DNA from: an uncultured Acidobacteriota bacterium
Lineage (GTDB): Bacteria; Acidobacteriota; Vicinamibacteria; Vicinamibacterales; UBA2999
NCBI GenBank assembly: GCA_963734635.1
Contig: CAVTIA010000002.1
Coordinates: 486,406 to 550,405, forward strand
DNA: 64,000 nt
Reading direction: 5' to 3'
Shown here: piece by piece, positions 36,185-52,358 of the stretch
Layout: each line of letters starts with the position of its first letter
How positions within the stretch are numbered: position 1 is the first letter of the stretch
Notes under the pieces: model-generated
Told to the model about the DNA's origin: nothing
What the model saw: the letters and a program-made list of their open reading frames with translations, nothing else
Database searches by the model: none
Translations under genes and position numbers: made by a program

Positions 36185-36244
36185 CCCCATACTGAGAGGC
36201 GGCCTCGACGGCCTGCCGTGTCTGAGTCGACAGGAGCTACATAC

Positions 36245-37243
36245 ATGAAGATGACGCATCGTCCCGTGACAGTCGTGCTCGGCGGGCTGCTCTCGGTCGC
36301 ACTACTGCAGACCCCGGGGAACGCACAGGGGCGGCAGGGCGGCCAGGCGGGCGCCCCGGCGAATGAGACCCTGAGCCAGAGCTACCGCGGCAGCAAGGCG
36401 CGCGACTGGGAGTTCCAGAAGGTGGCGCCGATCAAGGTGTTCGACAACCTGTATTACGTCGGACCCGGCAACGTCTCCGTCTGGCTGATCCAGACGACCG
36501 ACGGTCTGGTCGTGTTCGACTCGACGCAGGAGCCGCTGGTCGATCACGTGCTGGACAGCATCCGCAAGGTCGGCTTCGATCCGAAGAACATCCGATACAT
36601 CTTCCTTACGCACGGGCATCTCGATCACTTCGGCGGCACCGGCAAGCTGAAGCAAGCGGCCCCGGCGGCGCGGATTGCGACGCTCGAGGAAGACTGGCAG
36701 CTGATCGAGACGTTCTACAAGAACGCAGCGTCGGGTCGCGGCGGCAACAACCCGAATGCCCGTGACCCCGGCATCCCGTTCGCTCGCGATCTCGTGATCA
36801 AGGAAGGGGACGTCATCACCGTCGGCAAGACCGAGATCAAGGTGTACAAGCTACCGGGCCATACAGCGGGCTCACCCTCGTTCACGTTCACCGTGTTCGA
36901 CAACGGCCGGCCGCACAAGGCGCTAATCTTCGGAGGACCGGGTCAGCGCAACGGCGTCGAGGGCGGCACCCAGTTCCTCGAGAGCATCCGCCGACTGAAA
37001 GGCAAGGAGTTTGCGGATGTGGAAGTGCCGGTGCACGTTCACAGCTGGCTGACAACCTATCCGGATGAGCGAGGCGGCACTGTCTTCGAGCCTGCGATGC
37101 AACTGGCCAAGCGGCAGGCCGGGCAGCCGCATCCCTTCGTGATTCCGGACATGTGGAAGAAATGGCTCGACCGGGCGGAGGCGGGGACGATCAAGTACGT
37201 CGAGGAAGCCAAGGCGGGCAAGGCCGCCCCGGTTTCGAACTGA
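36245..37243 (+). CDS. secreted MBL-fold metallo-hydrolase (subclass B3 beta-lactamase-like layout)
   Basis: NLYYVGPGNVSVWLIQTTDGLVVFDS...IFLTHGHLDHFGG (HxHxDH)...PGHTAGS. A signal peptide is present, and AGGAG lies 9 nt before the ATG at 36245. Confidence 0.75.
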   Translation: MKMTHRPVTVVLGGLLSVALLQTPGNAQGRQGGQAGAPANETLSQSYRGSKARDWEFQKVAPIKVFDNLYYVGPGNVSVWLIQTTDGLVVFDSTQEPLVDHVLDSIRKVGFDPKNIRYIFLTHGHLDHFGGTGKLKQAAPAARIATLEEDWQLIETFYKNAASGRGGNNPNARDPGIPFARDLVIKEGDVITVGKTEIKVYKLPGHTAGSPSFTFTVFDNGRPHKALIFGGPGQRNGVEGGTQFLESIRRLKGKEFADVEVPVHVHSWLTTYPDERGGTVFEPAMQLAKRQAGQPHPFVIPDMWKKWLDRAEAGTIKYVEEAKAGKAAPVSN

Positions 37244-38644: not shown

Positions 38645-39005
38645 GGCGTCGTTCTCCCAATATTCAGATCCCACGACATGCCGCGAGCGCCTTTGCATGT
38701 CGCGGACGCTCTCGTGCAGTGCGAGGCGATACGCTCGATTGAGTCGTGTTTTCGTTGAACAACTTGCGGCCACGCGTAGCGTGAGGAAAAGCCCGCCAGC
38801 AAATGAAATGCCCGTCGTTCCGCGTGATCCCTCGATCGAGCGATGTTCGAAGCAGCCCAGACGTGCTTGCCACGATGGAAGACGCTGGAGTCAGCTGATA
38901 CTCGCGGCGAACGCCACAGAGTACGAGCGAAAGGAGCGTTCCCGGCGTGCTGAGCCGGCACCGGCGGGACGAGAGGCGCGCGGCTGACGAATCGGTCGTG
39001 GTCCC

Positions 39006-39107
39006 GTCCGGCTGAAGCCGGACACTACGTACGACTTCGCGCGGTCCGGCTAAAGCCGGACACTACGTACGATCGTGCCAGTCCGGCTCAAGCCGGACAT
39101 TACGTAC
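39006..39107. repeat. REP-like stem-loops, family A, three tandem copies (GTCCGGCT-NAA-GCCGGAC-ACTACGTAC)
   Basis: gtccggctgaagccggacactacgtac, gtccggctaaagccggacactacgtac and gtccggctcaagccggacattacgtac were read directly. Further copies lie at 12222-12282. Confidence 0.9.
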
Positions 39108-39117
39108 ACGAATCAGG

Positions 39118-40179
39118 TCAGGGTCGCAGCGACGCGACGTAGGCGGAAATGGCGATCAGATCGTCCTCGGTCAGCTTCTCCACCGCCGGCTTCATCGCCT
39201 TTGCCATGTCGCCGTTCCGCGCGCCCACCTGGAAGTCGTAGAGCTGGCGTGCCATGTACCCGGGATGTCGTCCGGCAAGCGGCGGGGCGACTGGCGTGCC
39301 GCGCATGTCAGGGCCATGGCACGTGCCGCACGCCTGCGTCTTGCCGTTGCCGCCGGTCATTACGAGGTTCTGGCCCGCCTTGATGCTGCCGGGCGGCACG
39401 TACGCGGCCATGCCGACGCGCGGATTGCGCAGCATGTTCGCCTGGTAGCTGTCCTCGGGCATCTCCACGATGCGCCTGCCGATCGGTTCGGTCTCGTTCC
39501 CCTCGGCTTTCAGGAACAGGCCGTTGATCGTGGCGGTGAAGCGAGGCACCGTCTCGGATTCGACGACGCGGATCCACGGCTTGAACGTGAGCGAGGCGAA
39601 GTACTCCGCAGCCTGCTGCGCCTCCTGCGGCGTCAGGTTACGGGCCATGGCGGCCATTTCCCACGCGTTCGCCTTGTTGATGTCTGCGCTCTTCCGCTTG
39701 CCGTTTGCCATTTCCGTCAGCTGGCGCAGAAAGTAGTCGACGCGCAGGCCCGCCACCGGACCGTTCTGCATCAGCCCCTGGCCGTTGGGATAGTGGCAGA
39801 TCGCGCAGGCACGGAAGCGCTGCGATTCCTTCCCGTGCGCGACGATGTCCGGCATCGGCGGGTGATCTTCGGGATACCAGTCGGCTGGCTTGTACGGCGA
39901 GGTGATCTCGGCGACGCTGAAGTACTTGCCGGTGCCCGGAATCGTCAGCTTCTCACCCGTGGTGTCGGCCGGCATCCCACCCGGCCGATCGCAGTCGCGC
40001 GGCGTGCTGCCCGGGCACCGGTTCGACCAGTCCTGCGGCGCCGGCGGCACCGTCTTGTAACCGTAGGCCCACAGCGGGAACCCGGGCTCGAGCGCGAGAA
40101 ACCGGACCCCCTGTGCCAGCAGCCCGGTTCCACTTGCAAGGGCGACGACGAAAACCAGCAGACCAGCGCGCTTCGCCAT
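39118..40179 (-). CDS. secreted di-heme c-type cytochrome
   Basis: CAICHYPNGQG and CGTCHGPDMRG (two CxxCH motifs). Signal peptide MAKRAGLLVFVVALASGTGLLAQG. It lies 13 nt downstream of the cupin gene. Confidence 0.8.
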   Translation of the reverse strand: MAKRAGLLVFVVALASGTGLLAQGVRFLALEPGFPLWAYGYKTVPPAPQDWSNRCPGSTPRDCDRPGGMPADTTGEKLTIPGTGKYFSVAEITSPYKPADWYPEDHPPMPDIVAHGKESQRFRACAICHYPNGQGLMQNGPVAGLRVDYFLRQLTEMANGKRKSADINKANAWEMAAMARNLTPQEAQQAAEYFASLTFKPWIRVVESETVPRFTATINGLFLKAEGNETEPIGRRIVEMPEDSYQANMLRNPRVGMAAYVPPGSIKAGQNLVMTGGNGKTQACGTCHGPDMRGTPVAPPLAGRHPGYMARQLYDFQVGARNGDMAKAMKPAVEKLTEDDLIAISAYVASLRP

Positions 40180-40192
40180 GGGTGTCAGTCTA

Positions 40193-40699
40193 TTACTGCT
40201 TCACACCCCGCGGGAATTCGAACGTCACCATGTAGAGCTCGGGGCTGAAGCCGGTCACCTGGTGCGGCACGCCTTCCGGGATCAGGAGGAAATCGCCCTT
40301 CGTAACCTTGTGGACCGTCCCCCCCTCGATTCTCCGTTCCACCTGATCGCCCTTCTTCGTCTCGACGATCTTGCCTCCGGTCGTGATTTCGCCGTTGCCG
40401 TCGATAATCGCCCACACTTCCCCTTCGGTCGCGTGCGCCGCTGCTCTTTGCGGCGGCCTCCGGCGATCCACCGCCATTCGATACGCGACCCCGCTCGGCG
40501 AGGTCGCCTCGGGACGCTCGACGACGGTGATGTTGGCGTAGGCCACTTCCTGAAGCTTGGCTCGGTGGGCGGCGACGCTGGCCGCCGAGAGGAAATACGC
40601 CTCCCTCGGATTGTTGTTGATGCTCTGCGGACCCTGCTGGCTCGAGGCAACCGAGGCAAGTGTGATGACGAGTGCGGCTGTGACAGCAATGATTCTCAT
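40193..40699 (-). CDS. secreted cupin-domain protein
   Basis: Signal peptide MRIIAVTAALVITLASVASSQ. Cupin beta-barrel text GEVWAIIDGNGEITTGG...VHKVTKGDFLLIPEGVPHQV. Confidence 0.7.
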   Translation of the reverse strand: MRIIAVTAALVITLASVASSQQGPQSINNNPREAYFLSAASVAAHRAKLQEVAYANITVVERPEATSPSGVAYRMAVDRRRPPQRAAAHATEGEVWAIIDGNGEITTGGKIVETKKGDQVERRIEGGTVHKVTKGDFLLIPEGVPHQVTGFSPELYMVTFEFPRGVKQ

Positions 40700-40714
40700 A
40701 TCGATGCTCCTCTG

Positions 40715-40802
40715 CCGGGTCCAAAAGGACGCGGCCGATGTCGCGCGTGCGCGTTGCCGGGTCCTAAGGACGCGGCCTACGGGTTCCAAAGGACCCGGCT
40801 AC
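40715..40802. repeat. REP-like stem-loops, family C, three copies
   Basis: ccgggtccaaaaggacgcggcc, ccgggtcctaaggacgcggcctac and gggttccaaaggacccggctac, lying between paralog 1 and the cupin gene. The last copy overlaps the paralog 1 stop codon. Confidence 0.85.
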
Positions 40803-41776
40803 CTGGGGGGCGTGACGCCCCTGAACCACTTGAAACCGAGCTTGTGCAGCTCGGCGATGGTGTGACCGACGCCCTCGTTACAGGTGTTCTCCCACACCTC
40901 GCGAGCGTACGGGTCGGGATCCACTGTTACGGTGTTGCGCCAGGCGTACTTCCCGGTTGTGTTGTCCGTACCGCCGGTTCCGGCGCGTCTCATCGGGTAG
41001 TTCATCTTCCACGGCCGCGTGTAGATGGTCGGATCTTCCACCGTGAGCTCGTAGTCGATGGTGTTCGCGTCGGCCATCCTGAAGCGCTCGGTCATGCGCG
41101 TGTTTTCGCTGTAGATATTGCCGACGCTGTCGAGCCAATGTTTGCCGTTCAGCCCGGTGACTTCGACGACGAGCGTGTCGCCGTCCCAACGGCCTCGGGA
41201 GTTGCCGCGGAAGAATTTCGCCTGGCCGCCGACATGCGGACGCCCATCGGTCGCAATCACGCGGTGCACCCGGGCGGTCACCATGATCACGCGACCTGGC
41301 TGCTGGATGATTTCCCCGACCGCGCCCCTCGGCCCGATCATCGTGAAGCAGTACGACGCGGGGTCAGCGTAGAGGCGCTGGCCGCTTTCCCCTGGCCATC
41401 CACGAGAGAGTCCGGCGCGATTTTCGTTGCGCCGCGCCAGTGCCCACGCGTTGTACGGGATTTTTCCGTCCGGCGGATCGGATACGAAGCTTTCCTGGGG
41501 CGGCGTGGTGACATCCACGTACCCGTGCTCTTCGATGTCATCGCCTCCCGCTCCGCCCGGTCCGCCCCATGTGCCCTGGAGGTCGGGTACTCCGTCAGGA
41601 GTGCGCGCGGGACGGTACGGCGGCAACGTTGCCTTGTGCGCTGCCCATGTCCTGGCCATCGGCAACCTTGGTGTATTCAGATCGAATCGTGCCTGCGCTG
41701 CGGCAGGACGCAAGGACAGAACCTGCACCGCGAGCGCGGCGACGACAAGAGCAACGGCTGCGAACATGTTTCGCAT
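40799..41776 (-). CDS. uncharacterised secreted protein, 'RTxDG-PD-LQG-W ... RGRW-GDTLVV ... EDP-x-YTRPW' family, long subtype (paralog 1)
   Basis: Signal peptide MRNMFAAVALVVAALAVQVL. Motifs: ARTPDGVPDLQGTW, DGKIPYNAWA, RGRWDGDTLVVEV, WLDSVGNIYSE and TVEDPTIYTRPWKM. I recognise no family. Confidence 0.7.
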   Translation of the reverse strand: MRNMFAAVALVVAALAVQVLSLRPAAAQARFDLNTPRLPMARTWAAHKATLPPYRPARTPDGVPDLQGTWGGPGGAGGDDIEEHGYVDVTTPPQESFVSDPPDGKIPYNAWALARRNENRAGLSRGWPGESGQRLYADPASYCFTMIGPRGAVGEIIQQPGRVIMVTARVHRVIATDGRPHVGGQAKFFRGNSRGRWDGDTLVVEVTGLNGKHWLDSVGNIYSENTRMTERFRMADANTIDYELTVEDPTIYTRPWKMNYPMRRAGTGGTDNTTGKYAWRNTVTVDPDPYAREVWENTCNEGVGHTIAELHKLGFKWFRGVTPPR

Positions 41777-41789
41777 GTTCCAATACCAG

Positions 41790-42608
41790 TTAGTTGAACG
41801 GAATGCCATTCGGTTTGTCCCACGCGTCCTCGAGCAGGTAGGAGAGACATTCATATTCGAGGAGCTCGGCGTTCGCGTCCCGATGTCGATACAAAGGCAT
41901 GCTGATCTTCCAGGGCCTCGTGAATACCTTTGGATCCTCGATCGTGGCCTCGTAGAGCATGTGGTTGGGCCCTGTCGGCGTGTACCGCTCGACGACGTGC
42001 AAGGCCTCGCTGTGAAAGTTGCCTGCACGATCGAGCCACGTCTGATCCGTGAAATGCATGACGTCGACGACCAGCGTATTGCCATCGAAGCGCGCCCGCG
42101 AGTCTCCCATGAACCATTCGATGGGACCCTTCGGATGCGGATTGCCGTTCATGTAGGCAAAGCGAACCGCGCCCAGATACTCGTAGAGAAAGGTGACCTT
42201 GTCGCGCTGCTGCACGATTTGAAACGGGTGCGGCATGTAGGTGATTCGCGGGACACCGGGCAGAAAGCATTTGCTCTCCGTATCGAGCGTGGCGCGGTTC
42301 TGGAAATTCTCCTGCCTCTTCTTGAGGGCCGCGGGTTGATAGGGGATCGCGCCGCCCTCGACAACACCGCGGCCCGCCGGCACGCCGAGGCGCGCGTTGT
42401 GATCTTCGAGATCCCACGCGGCTGTGTTGAGGACCTGCCAGATCCCTTGAAGATCAGGTTGTCCGTCTCGCGTGCGCGGCGGGTTGAACGGCGCGGGCGT
42501 GGCGGTTTGCGCAGCGCCTGTGCCCGTGTCGAGCCAGAGCGACGCGATAACCGTCAGAGCCGCAATTGAGGGAACGAGCCAGCGAGAACGGCGAAGTGTG
42601 GACGACAT
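41790..42608 (-). CDS. uncharacterised secreted protein, same family, short subtype (paralog 2)
   Basis: PRTRDGQPDLQGIWQVLNTAAW, IPYQPAALKKRQENF, KCFLPGVPR, GDSRARFDGNTLVVDV, TWLDRAGNFHSEALHVVERY, TIEDPKVFTRPWKISMP and LEYEC. Confidence 0.7.
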   Translation of the reverse strand: MSSTLRRSRWLVPSIAALTVIASLWLDTGTGAAQTATPAPFNPPRTRDGQPDLQGIWQVLNTAAWDLEDHNARLGVPAGRGVVEGGAIPYQPAALKKRQENFQNRATLDTESKCFLPGVPRITYMPHPFQIVQQRDKVTFLYEYLGAVRFAYMNGNPHPKGPIEWFMGDSRARFDGNTLVVDVMHFTDQTWLDRAGNFHSEALHVVERYTPTGPNHMLYEATIEDPKVFTRPWKISMPLYRHRDANAELLEYECLSYLLEDAWDKPNGIPFN

Positions 42609-42616
42609 GATGCGAG

Positions 42617-43072
42617 CTATCGTCCGATGGTGATCGACTCGAGCTGCTCGCGTGCCGGTGTGAGATCGCTCTGGCCAGCGGGAAACTTGTTCAGCTCGAA
42701 CAGAAACGCGAGGAGGTCAGCATACTCCTGAGGAGAGAGCGTCTTGGGGCTTCCGACGGGCATGGTGCTCGCCATGGTTCCGTAAAGCTCCCACGCCGTG
42801 CGGCCATTCCACTTTTTCTGGAACGGCTCCCCCGCCACCGCCGGCGCCTCGGCATCGCCCTCTCGCTCGAGCGATTCGCCAGGGATGACCGGTACGGCCG
42901 CATGTCCCTGTCCGTTGTCCAGATGACACAGCACGCAGCGCTTTCTGTACTGTGCGCGCCCACGCGCGGCTTGATCGGTCGTGTACACGCCGTCCATGAC
43001 GGAACGTTTGCCAGGGGCCTGCGCTGCGCGTGCGGTACCGCCAACGGCAGCGGCCGCGACGAGGATCATCAC
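42617..43072 (-). CDS. secreted mono-heme c-type cytochrome
   Basis: CVLCHLDNGQG is the single CxxCH. The hydrophobic leader is VMILVAAAAVGG. The start (GTG at 43072 or ATG at 43069) is uncertain. Confidence 0.65.
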   Translation of the reverse strand: MMILVAAAAVGGTARAAQAPGKRSVMDGVYTTDQAARGRAQYRKRCVLCHLDNGQGHAAVPVIPGESLEREGDAEAPAVAGEPFQKKWNGRTAWELYGTMASTMPVGSPKTLSPQEYADLLAFLFELNKFPAGQSDLTPAREQLESITIGR

Positions 43073-43095
43073 AACAACGACACAGCCCGATTTTG

Positions 43096-43186
43096 CCGGG
43101 TCCAAAAGGACCCGGCCTACTTGCGAAAGAACCCGGCCGGCGCGACGCTCCCAATCACGCGTAGGGCGGGTCCTTTCGGACCCGCC
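43096..43186. repeat. REP-like stem-loops: a family C copy (43096-43120), a degenerate C copy, and a family D copy (43152-43186)
   Basis: ccgggtccaaaaggacccggcctac ... caatcacgcgtagggcgggtcctttcggacccgcc. Confidence 0.85.
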
Positions 43187-43200
43187 TCGACGATTGCGAA

Positions 43201-45084
43201 TCACCGACTGGCCGTCCGACTGGCGGTCTGCGTGGTCGGCGACGGCCACGGGTTCCCGGGCGGCCCGTACTGATAGAACGCGCCCAGGGTCGTGATCTTG
43301 TCCATATCCGGATAGAGCACGCCAATCGCCGGCATCTCGCGGCTTCCGCGCGGCGAATACCAGATGGCGCCTTCACGCGTCACCTGCACCTTGGGCGTGT
43401 CGGCGTCGAACTGCGGCTTCGGATAGAACGCCCACGTCTGGTTGCGCGGGTTGAACTTGCTGATGAGCGCCACGCGATCCGGTGTCGGAGAATCCGCGAA
43501 CCACATGTTGCCTTCCGGGTCAGGATTCACGTCGTACGGCTGCGCCGTCCAGAGCGGCACCGAGTACTCGGTGAAGCGACCCGTCGTCTGGTCCAGCTTT
43601 GCGAGCTTGCCCGGCCGGCGACCCTGATTCCAGATGGCCGCCCAGATGTTGTTCTGCGCGTCCACGTTCAGCCGGCGAATGTGGCCCGGGAACGTCAGCG
43701 GCGCAAACTCGGTCCACTGCTCGTTGATCGTGTCGAACTTGGCGATCTTCCCGGAGTTCCACAGCGCGATCCAGATGTTGTCGTTGCGGTCGGCAATCAC
43801 GCCGTAGGGAACGGCCCCGCGATCCGAAATCGGGTACACGGTGACCTTGCCTGTGGCGCGTTCCCACTTGCTGATCGCGCCGCCCATGATCCAGCCGACG
43901 TACAGGTTGCTCTTGGAGTCGAGCGCCATCGACTGCATCCACTTCATCTCGTTGCGGATGACGTTGTCGGGATCGCCGGGAATCTGGTGATCCCACTTTT
44001 CGGTCTTGGGATTGAAGCCGAGGATCCGCTTCTTCCCGGTCGGCTGGACCCCGGAATGCTCGGGCGCCCACACGATGCCGAACCGATCGATGGTGAGGTC
44101 GTGGTTACCGAGCTTCGCGCCATCGGGATAGAGGTAATCTTTCTGCTCGCCCGTGCGCGGATTCAGCTTCACCAGCCGGTGCGGGTATCCGCGGTCGGTC
44201 AGCCACACGTTGCCGTCGGCATCGAACCGGACGTCCTGCCCCCACCGGATGCCGCGTCCCTGCTTGGCGAATTCAGGCGAGCTGCTGCCGGTTCCCGGCG
44301 GATCGATCGGCAGGTAATACTCGATGAACATCGCCTTGCTGAGCGCCGCCTCGTCGAGCGGAACGTCTTTTTCCGCGCGGACGAAGCGCGGCTTGGCGTC
44401 GGGACCAAAGTTCTTCGTTACGTACGCAATGAATTCCTCGCGCTCCTTCCTGGCGAACGGAAACCACTGCACGCGTCCCGAGAGCGCCCCTTCGGTGTAC
44501 GACCGCGCATCGCGCTCAGGGAGTTCGGCGCCCATCATGTGGCCGAGGCGCGCGCGCCACACGTCTTCACTCGCCGGCCTGGCGGAGATGAAGTTCTCGT
44601 GGTGGCAACGCATGCAGCCCTGCTCGATCACCTCGAGACCGGGGCCAGCCGGATAGATTTCCGAATAGCGCGCGAACGTCACGCCATTCTGCGGAGCAGG
44701 CTCGACACCCTGGCCCGCCCGCATGGCGACACTCAGCTTGGCGTTCTCACCGGCCCGCAGCGCGACCTTCTGCACCTCGGACTCGAGCCCCTTCGCCTTG
44801 ACGCGCACTTCGTAATTGCCCGGGAAAAGGGCAAGGGATCGAAATGCGCCAGCGTTGGTGAACACCATATACGTGACGTTCTTGTCGGTGTTGCGGATGT
44901 ACACCTGCGCAGCCCTGAAGGCCTGCGGCGCGGTCACATTACCCGACAGACGCGCCAGCCCGGCAATCTCGCCGCGCTGCTGGGCAACAACAGTTGTGGC
45001 GCCCCAGCTGATGCTCAGGACATATACGGCACACAGGGCCAGGACCCCGACGATCACCCCGGTCAGAAACCGACGGCTGCTCAT
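43201..45084 (-). CDS. secreted three-part protein: carboxypeptidase-regulatory-like domain, a CxxCH heme-binding segment, and a Vgb/NHL-like beta-propeller
   Basis: The N-terminal VYIRNTDKNVTYMVFTNAGAFRSLALFPGNYEVRVKAKG is CarboxypepD_reg-like. EQGCMRCHHENF follows. Then come repeated blades: DADGNVWLTD, DRFGIVWAPE, DSKSNLYVG, DRNDNIWIAL, DAQNNIWAAI and DPEGNMWFAD. Intact 627-aa ORF with GGAGGA before the ATG. Confidence 0.7.
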   Translation of the reverse strand: MSSRRFLTGVIVGVLALCAVYVLSISWGATTVVAQQRGEIAGLARLSGNVTAPQAFRAAQVYIRNTDKNVTYMVFTNAGAFRSLALFPGNYEVRVKAKGLESEVQKVALRAGENAKLSVAMRAGQGVEPAPQNGVTFARYSEIYPAGPGLEVIEQGCMRCHHENFISARPASEDVWRARLGHMMGAELPERDARSYTEGALSGRVQWFPFARKEREEFIAYVTKNFGPDAKPRFVRAEKDVPLDEAALSKAMFIEYYLPIDPPGTGSSSPEFAKQGRGIRWGQDVRFDADGNVWLTDRGYPHRLVKLNPRTGEQKDYLYPDGAKLGNHDLTIDRFGIVWAPEHSGVQPTGKKRILGFNPKTEKWDHQIPGDPDNVIRNEMKWMQSMALDSKSNLYVGWIMGGAISKWERATGKVTVYPISDRGAVPYGVIADRNDNIWIALWNSGKIAKFDTINEQWTEFAPLTFPGHIRRLNVDAQNNIWAAIWNQGRRPGKLAKLDQTTGRFTEYSVPLWTAQPYDVNPDPEGNMWFADSPTPDRVALISKFNPRNQTWAFYPKPQFDADTPKVQVTREGAIWYSPRGSREMPAIGVLYPDMDKITTLGAFYQYGPPGNPWPSPTTQTASRTASR

Positions 45085-45120
45085 GATGCCTTCCTCCGCT
45101 CTACAAGCGCTTACAGTAGC

Positions 45121-45140
45121 GCGCAGGCTTAAGCCTGCGC
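45121..45140. repeat. REP-like stem-loop, family B (GCGCAGGC-TTAA-GCCTGCGC)
   Basis: Read directly, between receptor 2 and the beta-propeller gene. Confidence 0.85.
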
Positions 45141-45202
45141 TCTACGGGTGCGGGGCGCCAGGGATTTTGGGCACCCTGGCGACCCTCCAATCACGTGAAA
45201 TC

Positions 45203-48124
45203 CTACCAGACGAACCGGATCGCCAGCTCGGCCTGCTGCCGTGGATACACGGTATTCAGCGTGCCAAACGCATTCGACGTCGCATTCATCTGCCACGGCG
45301 TAGCCCCTACGCCGAGGCTGTCGGTGCCAAACAGGTTGAGTACCTGAAGGATGAGTTCGGCGCGGCGTGCGCCGCCCAAGCTCACCTGCTTGCTCACCCG
45401 CAGATCGAAGCGCTGGAACTCGTCGGTCATGAGCTGACTTCTCGCGATCGCCGCCAGCCCCCGTGATGCGCGCCAGGTGTTCACCAGTGCCAGCATCTCG
45501 GCATCGTTGCCGCGGTTGAAGACGTTCTTCGTCGTCCCCGGCACGTAGTCGGTCACCGCGCCGTCGGCGTTCAGATCGATGCCGGCGCGCGCGGGGAACG
45601 GCCGTGACGACCGGTAGTTCCACACCGCCCCCACGGTGATGTCGAACGGCAGCATCACCGCGCCGCTCGCCACCAGCGTGTGGCGCCGATCCTGACTGCC
45701 GTAGCCGTCGTCATACTCCGGATGGTAGAAGTCGACGACGGTGGCCCCCCCTGCCCCCTGAGTCCTCGTCCTTCGCCAGCGTGTAGGACACGAGATACTG
45801 CGTCCGGCCCGAAAAGCGCTTGTCGAGCCGCAGATAGAGCGCGCGATAGTCGCTTTCGCCCGCCGCGCGGTATTCGAGGATGTTCCCCCACGTCGGCAGC
45901 GGGCGCCGCCCGGTTATTGGATCGGGGGTATTGATGTTGGCAATCTGGTTCGCCTTCGTCTCCCTTGCTGAACACACCGTCCACGTGAATCGCCAGATTC
46001 GGTCGCAGCTCATGCGACAGCCCCACGTTGAGCGATGTCGACTCTGGCTGTTCAATCTCGTCGTCCGTGGTGCTGACGTTCGGCGTCGCTGACACCGTGA
46101 CGAAGTCTGCGGCGACAGTCCGCCATACGGATCCGGATACGACGGATTCCGGATGTTGACCTGGCTTTGGAGCAGCGCGTTCACCTCGTTGCGCAGGGTG
46201 TTGGCGAAGACGTTGCCGTAGTACTTGCCGGTGGCGAGGCGCGCCACCGTGCGCCCGTCGCTTCGCACGTCCCACGCCAATCCGAACCGCGGCCCCCAGT
46301 TGTCGTTGTCCGCACGCGAGTCCGGGTCGATGAGCTCGGCCAGCCGTGGCCGGCCGTCGAAGGTGATGTGATTGTTGAACGCCCGGTGCAGGTTCTCGTA
46401 GCGGAGCCCGACATCGAGCGTCAGGTTCGGCAGGACGCGCCACTCGTCCTGCACGTATGTCTGAATCCAGTCGGCCCGGAGATGCCGCGGCAGCGGCGGG
46501 AACGACGCGGTGAACTGAATCGGGGTTCGCAGGTTGCGAATCGACGCCGCGCTGCCGTCGAAGAACTGATCGGTGCCGAACGTCCAGGTCCCGATGTTGT
46601 GTGTCGACTCCTCATTCGAGCGGAAGCGCAGGAAGGCACCGCCCGCCTTCAACGTGTGTCCGCCCATACTGAGCGTGAGGTCGTCCGAGATGTCCCACCG
46701 CTCAGTCCTGTTGTTGCTGTAGCCGGTCGATCCCCACGTCAGGCTCGGGAAGACGTACACCGCGCCAGGGGAGCCCGCGATGGTGTAGGGCTCGAAGCGT
46801 TCGGCCGGGAACTCGCCGCGCTGGCTGGCAGGCCACCGCGGAATGCCGGGCGGGCTCCCGAGGTTCTCCAGGTGCGACGGCGGAAGCTGCGACCGGACCT
46901 CGTTCAGCACCCGTGAGCTGATCACCCACGTGTGCGCCGCCAGCAGCGAGTCGCGCGGCGAGTCCGTATCGGTGCCGGTATTGCCGGCCAGGCTCCCACC
47001 GCACTCCTCACAGAACGTGTACTCCTTGTCCCACAGATACCGCAGGAACACGTTCTGCTCGTTGTTCACCTGGAAGTCGCCCCGCAGCAGCAACTGCCGC
47101 CGCTCGTACCCGGCCGGGAGAGTTCCCCTCGACCGCCGAGTAGAACTGCGGCTGGCCGGTGCGCACCGTGACCGTCTTCGGCTCCTTCGTCCGCTCCAAC
47201 GCCGCGAAGAAATGGATCCGGTCCTGCACGATTGGGCCGCCGAACGCGCCGCCGTACTGATTGCGCCGGTACTCCGGCTTCGGGTCGCCACGGGTGTCGT
47301 GCTGCTCCTTCTCGAACTTGTCCATCGCGTTCAGGCTGGTGTCGCGGAAGAACTCGAAGACCTCCCCGTGGAACTCGTTCGTGCCGCTCTTGGTCGCCGT
47401 CAGCACCACGCCGCCGACCGCGCTGTACTGCGCCGACGAGCCGCTGATGTTCACGCGGAACTCGCGGATCCCCGACTGCGGCACCTCGAGGAATTCCTGC
47501 CCCGAGTTGTAGATCTGGTTCTGGCCGCCGTCCACGTACGAGGTCGTCAGGTTGGCGTTGGCGCCCCCGGCGCCGATCGTCGGCCGCGCTCGCCGCGTGC
47601 CGGTTGGCAGCTGCGTCCCAGGCATCAGCAGCGCCAGCGACCCGGCCTGACGGTTGGCAATCGGCAGCATCTCGATCTGTTCCTGCGTCACCACGCTCGC
47701 CACTTCGGTCTGTCGTCGTTTCGACGACGGGGGACTGCGCGGTGACGATCAACGCCTCCTGGATGCCTTGAAGCGACATCGTGAGGTTCTGCTGCACCGA
47801 GAGCCCGATGGTCAGCGCAAGGTTGGTGACTTCTGCCGTTGCAAAGCCACCAAGCTCGGCTGTCAAGCTGTAGCGGCCGGGCTGCAGTCCCGCCAGGCGA
47901 TACTGGCCGTCTGTTTCGGTGACGGTGGTCCGGACCGTGCCGGACTCGACGTTGCGCAGGGTGACGGTGACCCCGGGTAGAACGCCGCCTTGCGCGTCCG
48001 CGATCACACCGGTAATCACTGCGCTGGCTTCACCCTGAGCGGCGGCAGCAGCCGCCGTTCCCAATACGGAGACCAAGAGAAGGGTCGCAATCCGAAGGTA
48101 CCGACGTCCCGAGACAGCTGTCAT
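45203..48124 (-). pseudogene. TonB-dependent receptor with carboxypeptidase-regulatory-like domain (copy 2), about 5 frame changes
   Basis: Start ATG at 48124 after GGAGG. The pieces are MTAVSGRRYLRIATLLLVSVLG..ITGVIADAQGGVLPGVTVTLRNVESG (frame of ORF 47066..48961), VASVVTQEQIEMLPIANRQ..TKSGTNEFHGEVFEFFRD (ORF 47008..47703), LRGDFQVNNEQN...NPSYPDPYGGLSPQ (ORF 45711..47291), FVTVSATPNV..HVDGVFSKG (ORF 45655..46443), back to KANQIANINTPDP..YTLAKDEDSG, and then VVDFYHPEYDD...AELAIRFVW (ORF 45203..45673). Confidence 0.85.
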
Positions 48125-48286: not shown

Positions 48287-48880
48287 ATGCGTACCTCTGC
48301 GGTTGTCATGGCGCTCGTCTTGGTTGGATTTACCGGTGCGGGGCGCTCGCCCGTCGTGCTCGGACAGACCGGCGCCGGCTGGGTAACGCTGTTCGACGGC
48401 AAGAATCTCGATCAGTTCGTCGCCACCGGTGACGCCGACTGGCACATCGTCGACGGCGTCCTGGAAGCCACGAAGGCTCGCGGCTTTCTCGTCTCCAAGC
48501 AGTCGTACACGGACTTCGAGCTGCGGGGAGAGGTCTGGGCGACAACACAGTCGAACGCCGGATTCCTCTTCCGCATCACGAATCCGAAGGACCCTGGGAT
48601 TGAGAACGGCTACGAGCTGAACATCAACGACGAGCGCAAAGACCAGTCGGGACGGACGGGCTCGATCGTCAACGTCGCGAAGCCGCTGGTGAAGTTCGAT
48701 TCCGGCGGCAAGTGGACGACGGTTGAAATCAGAGCGGTCGGACCTAAGATGACGGCGAGACTTGACGGAACGCTGACGGCGGAAGCGAGCGACGCCAAGT
48801 ACGCGCGTGGGCCCGTCGCGTTGCAGGCGGCGGGTGGGCTCGTTCGCTATCGGAATGTTCAGATCAGAGAAGTGAAGTAG
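48287..48880 (+). CDS. DUF1080 (3-keto-disaccharide hydrolase-like, concanavalin-type) secreted protein
   Basis: GWVTLFDGKNLDQFV...WHIVDGVLEA...YTDFELRGEVW...NAGFLFR...GYELNI...GPVALQ..G.VRYRNVQI is the typical DUF1080 pattern. Confidence 0.8.
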   Translation: MRTSAVVMALVLVGFTGAGRSPVVLGQTGAGWVTLFDGKNLDQFVATGDADWHIVDGVLEATKARGFLVSKQSYTDFELRGEVWATTQSNAGFLFRITNPKDPGIENGYELNINDERKDQSGRTGSIVNVAKPLVKFDSGGKWTTVEIRAVGPKMTARLDGTLTAEASDAKYARGPVALQAAGGLVRYRNVQIREVK

Positions 48881-48923: not shown

Positions 48924-50036
48924 TTAAGTAGAGCCTCGCCGGTACACCTTCGAGAATCCATTGCGGGCGTTCGTCACGGCGAACGTCCCGTCTTCCAGTG
49001 CTGACAGCTTGATCCAATACGCGCGGCCGTTGTGCGCCGGCGGCGGTGGCACGTTCGGACCGGGCTGCGGCAGCGGCATCGGCGCAACCGGCATCACGTC
49101 CTGCTGCTCGTCGATGCCGTTGGCGATGAACATACCGGGCGCGGTGTACTCCTGCCCGCTCAGCAGCGAGAAGTGCATCTGCCACAGGTCCTCGAATCCG
49201 GGCGACGAGTAGAGCGCTCTCATCACAGCGGGCAGCCCACCCTTGCGCGTGCCGTTGTTCATGATCGCCACGCGCGGCGCCACCGCGTGGACGAACAGCA
49301 CCGAGTTCGATGTGTCCTGCCCGTGATGCAGACCCAGTAGCGCGTCAACCGTGCCGAGGCGGTTCATCGGGCACACGAGCTCGAATTCCTTGTCGGTTGT
49401 GAGATCCCCCAGGTGCAGCGCGCGGAACCTGCCAAACGTGATGTAGCTGCCCACCGACTCGGGATCCTCGGGGATGGCATTCACGGGTGCCGGTCCGCTT
49501 CCGCACAACGGGTTGGCCCTGCCGGCATCAGGGAGCGGCGTGCGAATGACAGCACCGTTCGACGTCACGATGCGCACACCGATACCCGCAATCGGAATCG
49601 TGTCTCCAGGTTTGACGACCGTATGCTTCGCCTTCGCATACAGTTCTGGGTACACGCTCTGCAGGTACTTTTCCGTCGCCTCGTTCTTCTGCACGGTCGG
49701 TCCGTGATCGATGAAGTGGCGAATCGGGATGCGCGAGGCGAGTTCGGCAAGGCCGCCGTAGTGATCGCCGTGCCAGTGGGTGGTGATCAGGTGATCGATC
49801 TGACTGAGGCCGGCGTCTTTCGCGGCGTCAAAGATACGTCCCGCATCCCGAGCCGCGCCCATGCCGCCGTTGCCCGTGTCGATCAGAAGCGACTGACCGG
49901 ACGGAGACACGAAGAGCGTGGCGTTGCCACCCTCCACGTCGACGACATAGATGTCCAGCGTCTTCCCGCTGCGCGTCTGCGCCGCCACAAGCGCGGCACT
50001 CACGACGATCGTCACGAGACATAAAAATCGACGCAT
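48924..50036 (-). CDS. secreted MBL-fold metallo-hydrolase (copy 2, different subfamily from 36245..37243)
   Basis: Signal peptide MRRFLCLVTIVVSAALVAAQ. LDIYVVDVEGGNATLFVSPSGQSLLIDTG...LITTHWHGDHYGG (HxHxDH). The start was set at the ATG at 50036. Confidence 0.75.
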   Translation of the reverse strand: MRRFLCLVTIVVSAALVAAQTRSGKTLDIYVVDVEGGNATLFVSPSGQSLLIDTGNGGMGAARDAGRIFDAAKDAGLSQIDHLITTHWHGDHYGGLAELASRIPIRHFIDHGPTVQKNEATEKYLQSVYPELYAKAKHTVVKPGDTIPIAGIGVRIVTSNGAVIRTPLPDAGRANPLCGSGPAPVNAIPEDPESVGSYITFGRFRALHLGDLTTDKEFELVCPMNRLGTVDALLGLHHGQDTSNSVLFVHAVAPRVAIMNNGTRKGGLPAVMRALYSSPGFEDLWQMHFSLLSGQEYTAPGMFIANGIDEQQDVMPVAPMPLPQPGPNVPPPPAHNGRAYWIKLSALEDGTFAVTNARNGFSKVYRRGST

Positions 50037-50088
50037 CCTCGTAGTCCTTGAGCGTGGAGGTGAACGTCCTTCTGGACCCGGCGCGCTC

Positions 50089-50490
50089 CTATTGGCCCGG
50101 TCCGTTGATCTGCTGACCGGCAACCAGGAAGTTCCGTCCGTCAGCTGTCTTGACCGTCCGCCCGGCCATCGTCGTCGTGCCGTTTTTCGCGCGGAACCCT
50201 TCCACCGTCAACTCCGTCCCGATCGCAAGGTCCGTCTTTCGAACGCCGGCGCGCAGCAATGCCGTGGCGCTGCCCGCTTCGACGGCCCAGGTCTCGGTTT
50301 TTCCGTCTGGCCTCTTGACGTCGACGTGCAGCCAGCCGTGCGGGTTGACCCATTCGAGCTTGCTCAATGTCCCCTTCACGGTCACCGGCTTCTCGATGTC
50401 GAATTCCGCTGCGAACGAGTGATGCGCCGAGGCGGGCGCTGCGGCCCAGCACAACCCGACGCCCATAACCGCTGCAAGAAACTTCCTCAT
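50089..50490 (-). CDS. small secreted protein, DUF6152-like (mature N-terminus HHSF)
   Basis: The signal peptide ends ...APASA/HHSFAAEFD. The protein is 133 aa and beta-rich. The family name is from memory and should be verified. Confidence 0.55.
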   Translation of the reverse strand: MRKFLAAVMGVGLCWAAAPASAHHSFAAEFDIEKPVTVKGTLSKLEWVNPHGWLHVDVKRPDGKTETWAVEAGSATALLRAGVRKTDLAIGTELTVEGFRAKNGTTTMAGRTVKTADGRNFLVAGQQINGPGQ

Positions 50491-50508
50491 GGGACTGCCT
50501 CCGCGTTC

Positions 50509-51277
50509 TTAGGAATCAAAAGACTGACACTCGTAATCCAGGATTTGGAGGTTCTGCTCAATCCGGCGGTAGAACGGCATGCTCATCTTCCACGGTCTCG
50601 AAAAGACCTTGGGGTCGGTGACCGTGACTTCGTAATTGAGGTGATCGCGATCGAGCAGCGTATAGCGCTCGACGAGGTGCATCTCCTCACTGTGAAAATT
50701 GCCGGCGCGATCGAACCATGTGTCTGCGTTGAAATAAGTGACGTCGACGACAAGGGTGTCCCCTTCCCAGCGCCCACGAGAATCGCCGAGCGCCCATTCG
50801 ATCGGCCCTTCGGGATGCTCGCTGTTCAAGCGGATGTGACGAAGGCCGTTCGTACTCGAACAGCATGCCGATGTAGGTAGGCGTCTGGATGATCTGAAAC
50901 GGAAACGGCATGTACATGATGCGCGGGACGCCAGGCTGAAAGCACTTCGTTTCGGGGTCGGCCGTCAGGCGGTTCTTGAAGTTCTCGTTTCTCTTTGCGA
51001 GCGCCTCGGGCAAGTACGGCAGTTCGTTGCCTTCCACCACCGCCTGCCCCGCGGGAACGCCCTTCGCGGCAGAGTGATCCTGAATGTTCCAGGCAGCCGT
51101 GTTCAGCACCTGCCAGATCCCTGAAATGTCGGGCTTGCCGTCGGCGGTGCGCGGCAGCGAGCTGGTCGTGGCCGCCGGCGTCTGAGCGGGGACGCGGTTC
51201 ATCGAAAGCCACGCAACTCCCACCAGCACGAGCACCACGACGAGAGTGAGGGTAGTGCGACCGACTCGGCTTGTCAT
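50509..51277 (-). pseudogene. uncharacterised secreted protein, same family as 41790..42608 (paralog 3, short subtype), one frameshift near 50851
   Basis: ORF 50687..51277 gives LPRTADGKPDISGIWQVLNTAAW, LPYLPEALAKRNENF, KCFQPGVPR and MLFEYE. The continuation NGLRHIRLNSEHPEGPIEWALGDSRGRWEGDTLVVDV..TWFDRAGNFHSE..VTDPKVFSRPWKMSMP..LDYEC lies in the frame of ORF 50509..50829. Confidence 0.75.
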
Positions 51278-51287
51278 CTCGTCCCTC

Positions 51288-52245: not shown

Positions 52246-52290
52246 GAGAGGCTTGCCATGTCTACGTCTCCTTCGAACTAGCCGGTACCA

Positions 52291-52358
52291 GTCCGGAAGC
52301 CTGAAGGCTTCCGGCTACCAGCGTAGCAGGCTAGCCGGAGACCTTCAGGTCTCCGGCT
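52291..52358. repeat. REP-like stem-loops, variant forms (GTCCGGAAGCC-TGAA-GGCTTCCGGCTAC and CCGGAGACC-TTCA-GGTCTCCGG)
   Basis: Read directly, between receptor 3 and paralog 4. Confidence 0.8.

What the first reader, a model, noticed from the sequence alone, without database searches (positions are those of the whole stretch)
39118..48124. Nine-kb co-directional cluster joining a TonB-dependent receptor to three heme proteins, a cupin and two unknown secreted proteins
All seven genes lie on the minus strand with short gaps. In order they are: receptor copy 2; the protein with a CarboxypepD_reg-like domain, a CxxCH motif and a beta-propeller; a mono-heme cytochrome c; unknown-family paralogs 2 and 1; a cupin; and a di-heme cytochrome c. 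Every product has a signal peptide. The cluster therefore looks like an outer-membrane import step coupled to a periplasmic redox or processing pathway. It contains no recognisable dehydrogenase, oxidase or ABC/MFS inner-membrane step. I know of no described pathway with this composition. The substrate (a metal, a humic or aromatic compound, or a glycan) cannot be read from the sequence. The REP hairpins between genes may segment the transcript.
Basis: partly seen in the sequence, partly recalled or inferred. Interest (0 to 1): 0.75.

Follow-up and report, generated by a model that had tools for sequence, protein, structure and literature searches.

The report
Receptor-led periplasmic cytochrome gene cluster, Acidobacteriota
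This is a real seven-gene cluster, kept together in a narrow group of uncultured soil Acidobacteriota, that joins an outer-membrane import channel to three heme proteins, a cupin and a pair of proteins from a very large uncharacterised family; its function is still unknown.

Summary
The seven minus-strand genes are at the stated coordinates, with gaps of 8-131 nt. One flaw: the receptor gene (45203-48124) is broken by five 1-bp indels. These are probably long-read consensus errors. Relatives carry an intact 966-972 aa gene, and the frame-corrected copy has dN/dS of about 0.1.

The full order (receptor, heme/7-blade propeller protein, monoheme cytochrome c, unknown A, unknown B, cupin, c4-like diheme cytochrome) recurs in at least 8 independent contigs. 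It holds only where the diheme ortholog is at least about 70% identical.

The cluster is modular. Hairpin repeats mark the module borders. In other relatives the unknown pair is inverted against cupin+diheme, and one relative lacks the receptor.

The unknown proteins are paralogs (36% identity) with a weak calycin-like predicted barrel. Their family has about 17,000 clusters at 50% identity and no Pfam model. Its usual partners are a second paralog and DUF6152, not receptors or cytochromes.

The most likely function is import followed by periplasmic binding and processing, with electrons moving through c-type cytochromes. The logic resembles the Caulobacter lactose 3-dehydrogenase/DUF1080 route, but no defining enzyme of that route is present. 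Verdict: a new variant of a known kind, of moderate interest.

The parts
45203..48124 (-). TonB-dependent receptor 'copy 2' (CarboxypepD_reg N-terminal domain, plug, OMP_b-brl_4 barrel). The frame is broken five times in this window; orthologs are intact at 966-972 aa.
   Evidence: Pfam hits on the three frame fragments: CarboxypepD_reg 71.5 bits, Plug 23.5 bits, OMP_b-brl_4 190 bits, TonB_dep_Rec_b-barrel 29.7 bits. Frame plot. Indels against L006. Intact orthologs in L005 (972 aa) and L008 (966 aa). dN/dS 0.10-0.14 after frame correction, with no internal stop. GAGGAGG ribosome-binding site 7 nt before the ATG at 48124.
43201..45084 (-). 627-aa exported protein: CarboxypepD_reg beta-sandwich, then a helical monoheme c domain (C157-x-x-C160-H161, invariant M183), then a 7-bladed Vgb-lyase-like beta-propeller.
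   Evidence: Pfam. Invariant columns in 39 homologs. AlphaFold2 model with pLDDT 83.3 and about 27 propeller strands. Foldseek matches virginiamycin B lyase 2z2n/2qc5, TM 0.83-0.86 normalised to the target, 16-18% identity.
42617..43069 (-). Monoheme class I cytochrome c (CVLCH, downstream TMP Met ligand). The ORF is open up to 43249, but the real start is probably ATG 43069.
   Evidence: Pfam Cytochrom_C 33.3 bits. Hairpin repeats at 43097-43184 lie inside the long ORF version. Relatives differ by indels at 43066-43089.
41790..42608 (-). Unknown-family protein A (272 aa, exported). The C-terminal half is a predicted calycin-like beta-barrel. Invariant C114/C254, H70 and H158.
   Evidence: No Pfam, NCBIfam or PDB sequence match. 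More than 8000 clusters at 90% identity. 17,347 clusters at 50% identity. AlphaFold2 pLDDT 70.5. Foldseek gives weak FABP, SAHS and lipocalin hits (E=2e-4, TM normalised to the target about 0.5).
40799..41773 (-). Unknown-family protein B (324 aa from MRNMF), a paralog of A.
   Evidence: BLASTP against A: 36% identity, E=2e-34. A+B tandem pairs recur in 41 of 58 evaluable loci.
40193..40699 (-). Exported cupin (168 aa). Cupin motif 2 is intact (G-x5-P-x-G-x2-H). Motif 1 is reduced to one His plus Glu.
   Evidence: Pfam Cupin_2 34.8 bits. Motifs read from the translation. Lies directly upstream of the diheme gene in 20 of 25 orthologous loci at 70% identity or more.
39118..40179 (-). Diheme cytochrome c (353 aa) with two c4-like domains (CAICH, CGTCH), a conserved 110-aa N-terminal extension (PGFPLWAYGY...PRDCDRPGG) and an inter-domain insert.
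   Evidence: Pfam. PDB cytochrome c4 entries 6q2u and 1etp, E=4e-18 and 2e-17. Alignment of six orthologs.
39006..39098 (.). Three tandem REP-like hairpins (GTCCGGC-N4-GCCGGAC) just downstream of the last gene.
   Evidence: The same element follows the diheme gene in L001 and L005.
40716..40802 (.). REP-like hairpins (CGGGTCC-N4-GGACCCG type) between unknown B and the cupin.
43097..43184 (.). Two REP-like hairpins between the propeller-heme gene and the monoheme cytochrome gene.
   Evidence: Present at the same site in L006, L007 and L094.
45116..45185 (.). Two G+C-rich hairpins with no T-tract between the receptor stop and the propeller-heme start.
48287..48880 (+). Divergently transcribed exported DUF1080 (3-keto-disaccharide hydrolase family) protein. 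It is a conserved neighbour in part of the clade.
   Evidence: Pfam 127 bits. Same position in L001, L005, L008 and L099; absent upstream in L102, L140 and L142.
36218..37243 (+). Exported subclass-B3-like metallo-beta-lactamase-fold protein. It is the conserved convergent neighbour of the diheme gene, and here it is separated from it by an epoxide hydrolase gene (37385-38773).
   Evidence: Pfam Lactamase_B 78.8 bits. PDB BJP-1, L1 and FEZ-1, E about 1e-26 to 1e-20. Lies within 2.5 kb downstream of the diheme gene in 11 of 14 evaluable loci at 70% identity or more.
48924..55300 (-). Adjacent sister operon: receptor copy 1 (about 52278-55300, frame-broken), two unknown-family paralogs (about 50500-52259, frame-broken), DUF6152 (50089-50490) and an MBL-fold protein (48924-50123).
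   Evidence: Same layout in L005. blastn to L008.

Best explanation
The region is a receptor-led, operon-like cluster from an uncultured Acidobacteriota lineage. It is assembled from four modules separated by REP-type hairpins:
1. a TonB-dependent outer-membrane receptor;
2. a propeller protein with its own heme c domain, followed by a small monoheme cytochrome c;
3. a heterologous pair (A+B) of calycin-like periplasmic proteins from a very large uncharacterised family;
4. an exported cupin plus a c4-type diheme cytochrome.

Proposed working (inferred, not shown):
- The receptor brings a scarce or bulky organic compound into the periplasm.
- The calycin-like pair binds it or a hydrophobic part of it.
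- The propeller-heme protein and the cupin transform it.
- Electrons pass from the enzyme-bound heme to the monoheme cytochrome, then to the diheme c4-type cytochrome, and from there to or from the respiratory chain.
- The neighbouring DUF1080 and B3-type metallo-hydrolase genes supply hydrolytic steps.

Shown: gene content, domain identities, heme motifs, fold predictions, and conservation of order within a clade.

Inferred: co-transcription, direction of electron flow, substrate class, and the binding role of the unknown pair.

The five frame breaks in the receptor are most likely consensus errors of a long-read assembly, not gene decay.
For: Gene content and domains.

The seven-gene order is repeated in 8 independent contigs from different samples.

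In L009 the specific orthologs (50-71% identity) remain within 12 kb after rearrangement, together with both MBL types and DUF6152.

Among diheme orthologs of at least 70% identity:
- cupin adjacent in 20/25;
- unknown A within 3.5 kb in 10/11;
- unknown B within 3.5 kb in 12/14;
- B3-like MBL downstream in 11/14.

A second propeller-heme paralog in L009 is also followed by a small cytochrome c. This suggests an enzyme plus redox-partner pair.

Heme ligands are conserved.

The gaps of 8, 16 and 13 nt inside modules, and of 99-131 nt with hairpins between modules, match the break points seen in relatives.

For the receptor (assembly error rather than decay):
- dN/dS is 0.10-0.14 and there is no internal stop after frame correction.
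- The ORF is intact in the Illumina contig L006 and in L005 and L008.
- In the sibling long-read contig L005 different genes are broken.

Precedent for the logic: periplasmic lactose 3-dehydrogenase LacABC working with DUF1080 proteins in Caulobacter (PMC9007349).
Against: - No recognised redox cofactor site other than heme c is present in the propeller. Its nearest structural relative is a Mg-dependent lyase, not an oxidoreductase.
- Conservation is limited to close relatives, where shared ancestry alone can keep gene order.
- The receptor is missing in L001. The propeller and monoheme genes are not seen in the alternative arrangement.
- Propeller-heme homologs at 59-60% identity sit in unrelated contexts.
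- The unknown family is mostly found without receptors or cytochromes.
- No transcript data exist. The inter-module hairpins could equally mark separate transcription units.
- The calycin assignment rests on a medium-confidence model (pLDDT 70.5) and weak Foldseek scores.
Confidence: 0.45

Rival explanations
1. The seven genes are a mosaic of independent units (receptor; propeller-heme plus cytochrome; unknown pair; cupin plus diheme) that sit together only through recent common descent. These genomes are crowded with paralogs of each family. There is no single pathway.
For: - The modules recombine. The receptor is absent in L001. The unknown pair is inverted against cupin+diheme in at least 9 contigs.
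- Propeller-heme homologs occur alone elsewhere.
- The unknown pair normally travels with DUF6152 rather than with these genes.
- Conservation vanishes below about 70% identity of the diheme ortholog.
- Hairpin repeats separate the modules.
Against: - In L009 the specific orthologs, not just family members, remain within 12 kb after extensive reordering.
- The unknown pair stays next to cupin+diheme even when inverted.
- All products are exported and co-directional, with 8-16 nt gaps inside modules.
Confidence: 0.25
2. The cluster is a metal or metal-cofactor acquisition system. The receptor imports a chelated metal such as Fe, Cu or another trace metal. The cytochromes reduce it to release it. 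The calycin-like pair, and DUF6152 in the sister operon, act as periplasmic metallochaperones.
For: - TonB-dependent receptors classically import metal chelates (established knowledge).
- DUF6152 in the adjacent operon has a predicted mature N-terminus HHS... and a WVNPH motif. This is reminiscent of N-terminal-His metal sites (my recollection, not tested).
- The unknown family has invariant His, Cys, Asp and Glu columns.
- Some calycin-fold bacterial proteins bind metals (from memory; ZinT/YodA).
Against: - There is no Fur- or Zur-type palindrome in the conserved upstream region (by eye only).
- No riboswitch was found.
- No ABC importer or periplasmic binding protein of a known metal type is present.
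- The cupin, DUF1080, B3-MBL and epoxide hydrolase neighbours point to organic chemistry.
- No metal site has been demonstrated.
Confidence: 0.15
3. The cluster is a decaying remnant. The receptor, together with the other two receptors and two paralogs nearby, is a true pseudogene, so import is no longer coupled to the downstream genes in this organism.
For: - There are five frame-breaking indels in 2.9 kb, while the six downstream genes (about 6 kb) have none.
- All three receptor genes in the window are broken.
- The indels are not in long homopolymers.
Against: - dN/dS is 0.10-0.14 and there are no in-frame stops after correction.
- Start to stop is still a multiple of three (2922 nt).
- Orthologs at 88-91% DNA identity are intact.
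- Related long-read contigs show breaks in other genes, as expected for consensus errors.
Confidence: 0.1

Closest known systems
Caulobacter crescentus periplasmic lactose/glycoside 3-dehydrogenase route (LacABC plus DUF1080 3-ketoglycoside hydrolases), and the Agrobacterium glucoside 3-dehydrogenase route
   Same: Oxidation happens in the periplasm, and exported DUF1080 proteins are encoded next to the oxidising system (PMC9007349). Electron transfer through a cytochrome c component and uptake through a TonB-dependent receptor are my recollection of that system; they were not in the passages read. Here a DUF1080 gene lies directly upstream, divergent, and is conserved in L001, L005, L008 and L099.
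   Different: No GMC/FAD dehydrogenase (LacA-like) and no Tat small subunit is present. The candidate enzyme here is a Vgb-lyase-like propeller with a fused heme c domain. A cupin and the unknown pair have no counterpart. DUF1080 is absent upstream in L102, L140 and L142.
Quinohemoprotein dehydrogenases (type II alcohol dehydrogenase, PVA dehydrogenase with its cytochrome c partner)
   Same: A beta-propeller catalytic domain is fused to a c-type cytochrome domain, and a separate small cytochrome c is encoded next to it. This rests on my knowledge of these families.
   Different: Those propellers are 8-bladed PQQ enzymes with the heme domain at the C-terminus. Here the propeller is 7-bladed and Vgb-like with no PQQ family hit, the heme domain precedes the propeller, and a CarboxypepD_reg domain is added.
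Virginiamycin/streptogramin B lyase (Vgb)
   Same: The propeller fold matches: Foldseek TM 0.83-0.86 normalised to the target and Pfam Vgb_lyase 62.6 bits.
   Different: Identity is only 16-18%. NCBIfam Vgb(A)/(B) scores are 22-36 bits against a cut-off of 600. Vgb is a cytoplasmic single-domain enzyme without heme. Conservation of the catalytic residues could not be established because the repeats make the alignment ambiguous.
Cytochrome c4 (diheme periplasmic electron carrier)
   Same: The 353-aa protein has two class I heme c domains, each with the CxxCH...P.LAG...Y...QL..F..G.R pattern. PDB c4 entries match at E about 1e-18.
   Different: It is about 160 residues longer, with a conserved Cys-containing N-terminal extension and an insert between the domains.
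TonB-dependent-receptor-led utilisation loci (SusC/D PULs of Bacteroidota; CUT loci of Xanthomonas and Caulobacter)
   Same: A receptor gene is followed by co-directional genes for exported processing proteins. The receptor carries the CarboxypepD_reg N-terminal domain, as SusC-type receptors do.
   Different: There is no SusD, no glycoside hydrolase family and no inner-membrane transporter. The score against the SusC/RagA model is 19.5 bits against a cut-off of 368. Three c-type cytochromes are present instead.

Membership tests
TonB-dependent receptor | Plug domain followed by a 22-strand beta-barrel | tested here: met
   OMP_b-brl_4 scores 190 and 90 bits. TonB_dep_Rec_b-barrel scores 29.7 bits (cut-off 27). 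Plug scores 23.5 bits, just under the 23.9 cut-off.
TonB-dependent receptor | Uninterrupted reading frame | tested here: not met
   Five net 1-bp indels in the window. Orthologs L005, L006 and L008 are intact. dN/dS is about 0.1, so the breaks are probably assembly errors.
TonB-dependent receptor | TonB box near the N-terminus of the plug | not tested
   No motif search was done; the consensus is weak.
Class I c-type cytochrome (three proteins) | CxxCH heme attachment motif, a distal Met ligand and a Sec signal | tested here: met
   CMRCH with invariant M183. CVLCH with TMP. CAICH and CGTCH with invariant M175/M178 and M329. Pfam Cytochrom_C is above cut-off for the mono- and diheme proteins. 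The heme domain of the 627-aa protein has only weak SorB-like hits.
Cytochrome c4 | Two tandem class I domains in a protein of about 190 aa | tested here: inconclusive
   Both domains are c4-like, but the protein is 353 aa with extra conserved segments.
Streptogramin B lyase (Vgb) | 7-bladed propeller of the Vgb family | tested here: met
   Pfam PF24684 scores 62.6 bits against a cut-off of 50. Foldseek TM is 0.83-0.86 normalised to the target.
Streptogramin B lyase (Vgb) | Score at the level of functional Vgb(A)/Vgb(B) orthologs | tested here: not met
   NCBIfam scores are 35.6 and 22.5 bits against a cut-off of 600.
Streptogramin B lyase (Vgb) | Mg-binding and catalytic His/Glu residues | tested here: inconclusive
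   The profile alignment to 2qc5 and 2z2n is repeat-ambiguous and covers only part of the propeller.
Cupin superfamily | Two cupin motifs with metal ligands | tested here: inconclusive
   Cupin_2 is above cut-off. Motif 2 is complete. Motif 1 keeps one His and a Glu only (read).
Calycin (lipocalin/FABP-like) fold, for unknown A/B | 8-10-stranded up-and-down barrel enclosing a ligand pocket | tested here: inconclusive
   The AlphaFold2 model has pLDDT 70.5 with about 9 strands in residues 129-241. The best Foldseek hit has E=2e-4 with TM 0.29 (query) and 0.50 (target). There is no sequence match.
LacABC/DUF1080 3-ketoglycoside pathway | FAD/GMC glycoside 3-dehydrogenase subunit | tested here: not met
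   No GMC or FAD family hit appears in any gene of the cluster or its flanks.
LacABC/DUF1080 3-ketoglycoside pathway | Exported DUF1080 protein encoded nearby | tested here: met
   The gene at 48287-48880 hits PF06439 at 127 bits. It is conserved in 4 of 7 evaluable relatives.
SusC/SusD polysaccharide utilisation locus | SusD-like lipoprotein next to a SusC-type receptor | tested here: not met
   There is no SusD hit. The SusC/RagA model scores 19.5 bits against a cut-off of 368.
REP-type intergenic palindromes | Short G+C-rich palindromes, repeated across the genome and confined to intergenic sites | tested here: met
   Six and five copies against 0.05 and 0.04 expected. Only one lies inside a gene: the single-mismatch match at 47928-47945, within the receptor gene. 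The others are all intergenic, taking the monoheme gene to start at 43069. Present at the same sites in relatives.

The most novel reading that the evidence does not exclude
Two new things may be hidden here.

1. The unknown A/B pair together with DUF6152 may form a widespread, undescribed periplasmic system: about 17,000 clusters at 50% identity across Acidobacteriota, Gamma- and Alphaproteobacteria and Myxococcota. It could be a heterodimeric calycin-like carrier working with a small N-terminal-His protein.

2. The CarboxypepD_reg/heme c/Vgb-like propeller proteins may be a new class of cytochrome-linked periplasmic enzymes.

In this clade the two would have been wired, together with a cupin and a c4-type cytochrome, to a dedicated outer-membrane receptor. 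That would make a respiratory-chain-coupled catabolic or detoxifying route with no characterised counterpart.
Probability: 0.25. Interest if true: 0.7.

Novelty: new variant of a known kind. Interest (0 to 1): 0.45.

Why it matters
Acidobacteriota are among the most abundant soil bacteria, and their many TonB-dependent receptors have mostly unknown substrates.

This cluster gives a defined, conserved set of partners for one such receptor. The partners include a protein family of about 17,000 clusters with no Pfam or NCBIfam model, no name from any source, and no detectable solved-structure relative.

If the heme-propeller protein is an enzyme that feeds electrons to c-type cytochromes, it would add a new periplasmic oxidation route to soil carbon turnover.

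Even if the cluster proves ordinary, two results are concrete and testable. The unknown pair is tightly linked to DUF6152. The cluster has four modules whose borders are marked by hairpin repeats.

Tried and rejected
- **Exact look-up of the window's 627-aa protein:** not on record.
- **Sequence search of the unknown family against PDB:** only chance-level hits. Cupin and DUF6152 against PDB: nothing useful.
- **Riboswitch or other RNA family that might reveal the substrate:** none in the whole window at gathering score, and none upstream of the receptor at E up to 1.
- **Sigma-70 promoter and intrinsic terminator scan:** no enrichment (0 and 4 sites found against 1.1 and 6.0 expected).
- **Upstream-region alignment for an operator:** only a promoter-like TTGACA...TATGCGAT was conserved, with no clear palindrome.
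- **Domain fusions of long unknown-family members:** ten proteins of 356-531 aa have no Pfam domain.
- **Literature:** no paper mentions DUF6152, and none combines virginiamycin B lyase, cytochrome c and Acidobacteria. A Vicinamibacter/TonB search gave only the PQQ importer PqqU paper. I rejected that as an explanation because no PQQ-enzyme family is hit here.
- **Vgb catalytic residues:** the alignment is too repeat-ambiguous to use.
- **General receptor linkage of the unknown family:** rejected, 8 of 58 loci.
- **Other neighbours of the unknown pair** (PQQ dehydrogenases, cytochrome c'-like, CytoC_RC-like, NHL propellers, ankyrin): seen in 7-14 of 80 loci. These were not tested against a genome background, so I did not use them as evidence.

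Full report
**What is in the sequence**

Between 39118 and 48124 the minus strand carries seven consecutive genes. Six are intact ORFs:
- a 353-aa diheme cytochrome c (39118-40179);
- a 168-aa exported cupin (40193-40699);
- two paralogous proteins with no family assignment, B (40799-41773) and A (41790-42608), 36% identical, E=2e-34;
- a monoheme cytochrome c (42617 to about 43069);
- a 627-aa protein (43201-45084) with a CarboxypepD_reg domain, a CxxCH motif and a Vgb_lyase-type propeller.

The seventh gene is the TonB-dependent receptor (45203-48124). It has a good ribosome-binding site and start and ends in the usual aromatic residue. In this window, however, it is split over several frames. 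The GC3 frame plot switches at about 47650, 47050, 46050-45950 and 45690. Alignment with an intact ortholog locates five net single-base indels.

Gaps are 8, 16 and 13 nt within three gene pairs. The other three gaps are 99-131 nt, and each of these longer gaps holds palindromic hairpins. Two hairpin families are present, GTCCGGC-N4-GCCGGAC and CGGGTCC-N4-GGACCCG. Each is more than 100-fold over chance in the window, and both recur at the same intergenic positions in relatives.

The observation therefore stands, with three reservations:
- the receptor is not an open frame here;
- the monoheme gene is probably shorter than its ORF;
- signal peptides were judged by inspection only.

**Are the receptor frame breaks real?**

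After frame correction against three intact orthologs, the receptor has no internal stop and a dN/dS of 0.10-0.14. The neighbouring genes fall in the same range, 0.06-0.15. Start to stop is still a multiple of three.

An Illumina contig at 89% DNA identity over the receptor (L006), a long-read contig (L005, 972 aa) and an NCBI MAG (L008, 966 aa) all have the gene intact. In L005 it is the 627-aa gene and other genes that are fragmented instead.

All three receptor genes in the window, and two paralogs at 50500-52259, are broken, while the genes between them are intact. That non-uniformity is not explained. I consider consensus error of a long-read metagenome assembly the most likely cause. A very recent pseudogene cannot be excluded.

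**Conservation**

I used three independent anchors.

*Anchor 1: homologs of unknown A and of the 627-aa protein, looked up on long contigs.*
- The same seven-gene order is present in L005/L010 (uncultured Acidobacteriota MAG), L006 and L008.
- L001 (79% identity) has the six downstream genes but no receptor between DUF1080 and the 627-aa gene.
- L009 (71%) has the orthologs reordered but still within 12 kb, together with two MBL-fold genes and DUF6152.
- Propeller-heme homologs at 59-60% identity sit in unrelated neighbourhoods.

*Anchor 2: a scan of one genome per species with the unknown-family profile.* It gave more than 590 loci in Acidobacteriota (Vicinamibacterales, Bryobacterales, Terriglobia), Gamma- and Alphaproteobacteria and Myxococcales. 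In 58 evaluable loci:
- a second paralog lies within 400 bp in 41;
- DUF6152 lies within 2.5 kb in 43;
- a receptor lies within 2.5 kb in 8;
- an ortholog of any heme, cupin or propeller gene is present in 1.

*Anchor 3: a metagenome scan anchored on the diheme cytochrome, giving 59 loci.*
- The full order recurs in L098, L099, L102, L140 and L142, and is truncated in L111 and L093.
- At least 9 further contigs have a second arrangement. The unknown pair points away from cupin+diheme, and a B3-like MBL gene is convergent downstream.
- Where the diheme ortholog is 70% identical or more, the cupin is adjacent in 20 of 25 loci, unknown A in 10 of 11, and the MBL in 11 of 14.
- At 60-70% identity the cupin is never adjacent. 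Below 60% none of the partners is found.

The cluster is therefore real and recurrent, but it is clade-restricted and modular. The stable core is unknown pair + cupin + diheme (+ B3-like MBL). The receptor and the propeller-heme/monoheme pair belong to one sub-branch.

**What the parts look like**

*The 627-aa protein.* The model is confident (pLDDT 83.3). It shows an N-terminal beta-sandwich, a small helical heme domain and about 27 strands forming a 7-bladed propeller. The best structural matches are virginiamycin B lyases, with TM 0.83-0.86 normalised to the target and 16-18% identity.
- It is far below the ortholog cut-offs for Vgb.
- The catalytic residues could not be aligned reliably.
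- C157, C160, H161 and M183 are invariant in 39 homologs.

*The diheme protein.* It has two c4-like domains (PDB c4, E about 1e-18). It also has a conserved Cys-containing N-terminal extension and an insert.

*Unknown A.* It has no sequence relative of known structure. Its medium-confidence model (pLDDT 70.5) shows a C-terminal barrel of about 9 strands. This barrel weakly resembles FABP, SAHS and lipocalin folds.
- The family has 17,347 clusters at 50% identity with E of 1e-3 or better, and 9,245 at 1e-10.
- No long member carries a known fused domain.

*Neighbours.*
- An exported DUF1080 protein is divergent upstream.
- An exported B3-type MBL-like protein lies at 36218-37243.
- An epoxide hydrolase lies at 37385-38773.
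- A sister operon at 48924-55300 holds receptor copy 1, two unknown paralogs, DUF6152 and another MBL-fold protein.

The rest of the window is housekeeping.

**How it most likely works**

I favour an import-plus-periplasmic-processing system with cytochrome-c-mediated electron transfer. The receptor admits a scarce or bulky organic compound. The calycin-like pair holds it or a hydrophobic moiety. The propeller-heme protein and the cupin act on it. Electrons move through the enzyme-bound heme, the monoheme cytochrome and the c4-type diheme cytochrome to or from the respiratory chain. DUF1080 and the MBL-fold protein contribute hydrolytic steps.

Only the gene content, domains, motifs, folds and conservation are shown. 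Everything about flow, substrate and co-transcription is inference.

The nearest described logic is the Caulobacter route. There lactose and other glycosides are oxidised in the periplasm by LacABC and then cleaved by DUF1080 proteins (PMC9007349). The defining FAD dehydrogenase of that route is absent here. This cluster is therefore not a member of that pathway and at most works in a similar way.

The rivals are:
- a mosaic of independent modules (0.25);
- a metal-acquisition system (0.15);
- a decaying locus (0.10, not exclusive of the others).

**Novelty and score**

Receptor-led operons for exported processing proteins, and propeller enzymes with fused or adjacent cytochromes c, are known kinds. 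This particular combination is not described in anything I could find. The heme/Vgb-like propeller architecture, the extended c4 cytochrome and the unknown pair have no characterised member.

I rate it a new variant of a known kind, with interest 0.45. It is a solid lead into a very large dark protein family and into Acidobacteriota receptor biology. It has no surprising mechanism demonstrated, and its conservation is limited to a narrow clade.

Noticed in passing
window 50089-50490 (-): The DUF6152 protein (Pfam 114 bits) has a predicted mature N-terminus that starts HHSFAAEFD right after an ASA cleavage site, and it carries a WVNPHGW motif. This may be an N-terminal-histidine metal site. It is the most constant neighbour of the unknown family, within 2.5 kb in 43 of 58 loci.
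   Followed up: partly
window 33029-36065 (+), 45203-48124 (-), 50500-52259 (-), 52278-55300 (-): All three TonB-dependent receptor genes and two unknown-family paralogs are frame-broken, while the genes between them are intact. This non-uniform distribution of indels is unexplained. Possible causes are paralog or strain collapse during long-read polishing, or systematic error.
   Followed up: partly
window 41790-42608 and 40799-41773; loci L010-L089: The unknown family has about 17,000 clusters at 50% identity across several phyla and no Pfam or NCBIfam model. It occurs almost always as tandem A/B pairs or longer arrays, for example 5-6 copies in L021, L028 and L058.
   Followed up: yes
window 12222-12277, 39006-39098, 40716-40797, 43097-43184, 60791-60808: Two families of REP-like palindromes (GTCCGGC-N4-GCCGGAC and CGGGTCC-N4-GGACCCG) occur in tandem arrays at intergenic sites. 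They are shared with related contigs.
   Followed up: yes
window 9442-10416 (-): A second, heme-less Vgb_lyase/SGL-like propeller gene with an N-terminal TIG domain lies far from the cluster.
   Followed up: no
window 31691-32635 (-): A 314-aa protein combines a class I cytochrome c domain with a cytochrome c'-like C-terminal region. Relatives of 313-319 aa whose precomputed Pfam hits are cytochrome c families lie in the neighbourhood of the cluster in L001 and L008; homology to the window's protein was not tested.
   Followed up: no
loci L012-L089 (flanks of unknown pairs): Genes for PQQ-type dehydrogenases, cytochrome c'-like proteins, CytoC_RC-like multiheme proteins, NHL propellers, ankyrin-repeat proteins and DUF1552/PSCyt pairs recur within 10 kb of unknown-family pairs, in 7-14 of 80 loci each. 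These labels were read from the sequences and not checked against Pfam. This was not tested against a genome background.
   Followed up: partly
window 37385-38773 (-): An epoxide hydrolase gene (EHN plus alpha/beta hydrolase) is inserted between the diheme gene and the B3-like MBL gene in the window and in L006. In L001, L008, L098 and L102 the MBL gene directly follows the diheme gene.
   Followed up: partly
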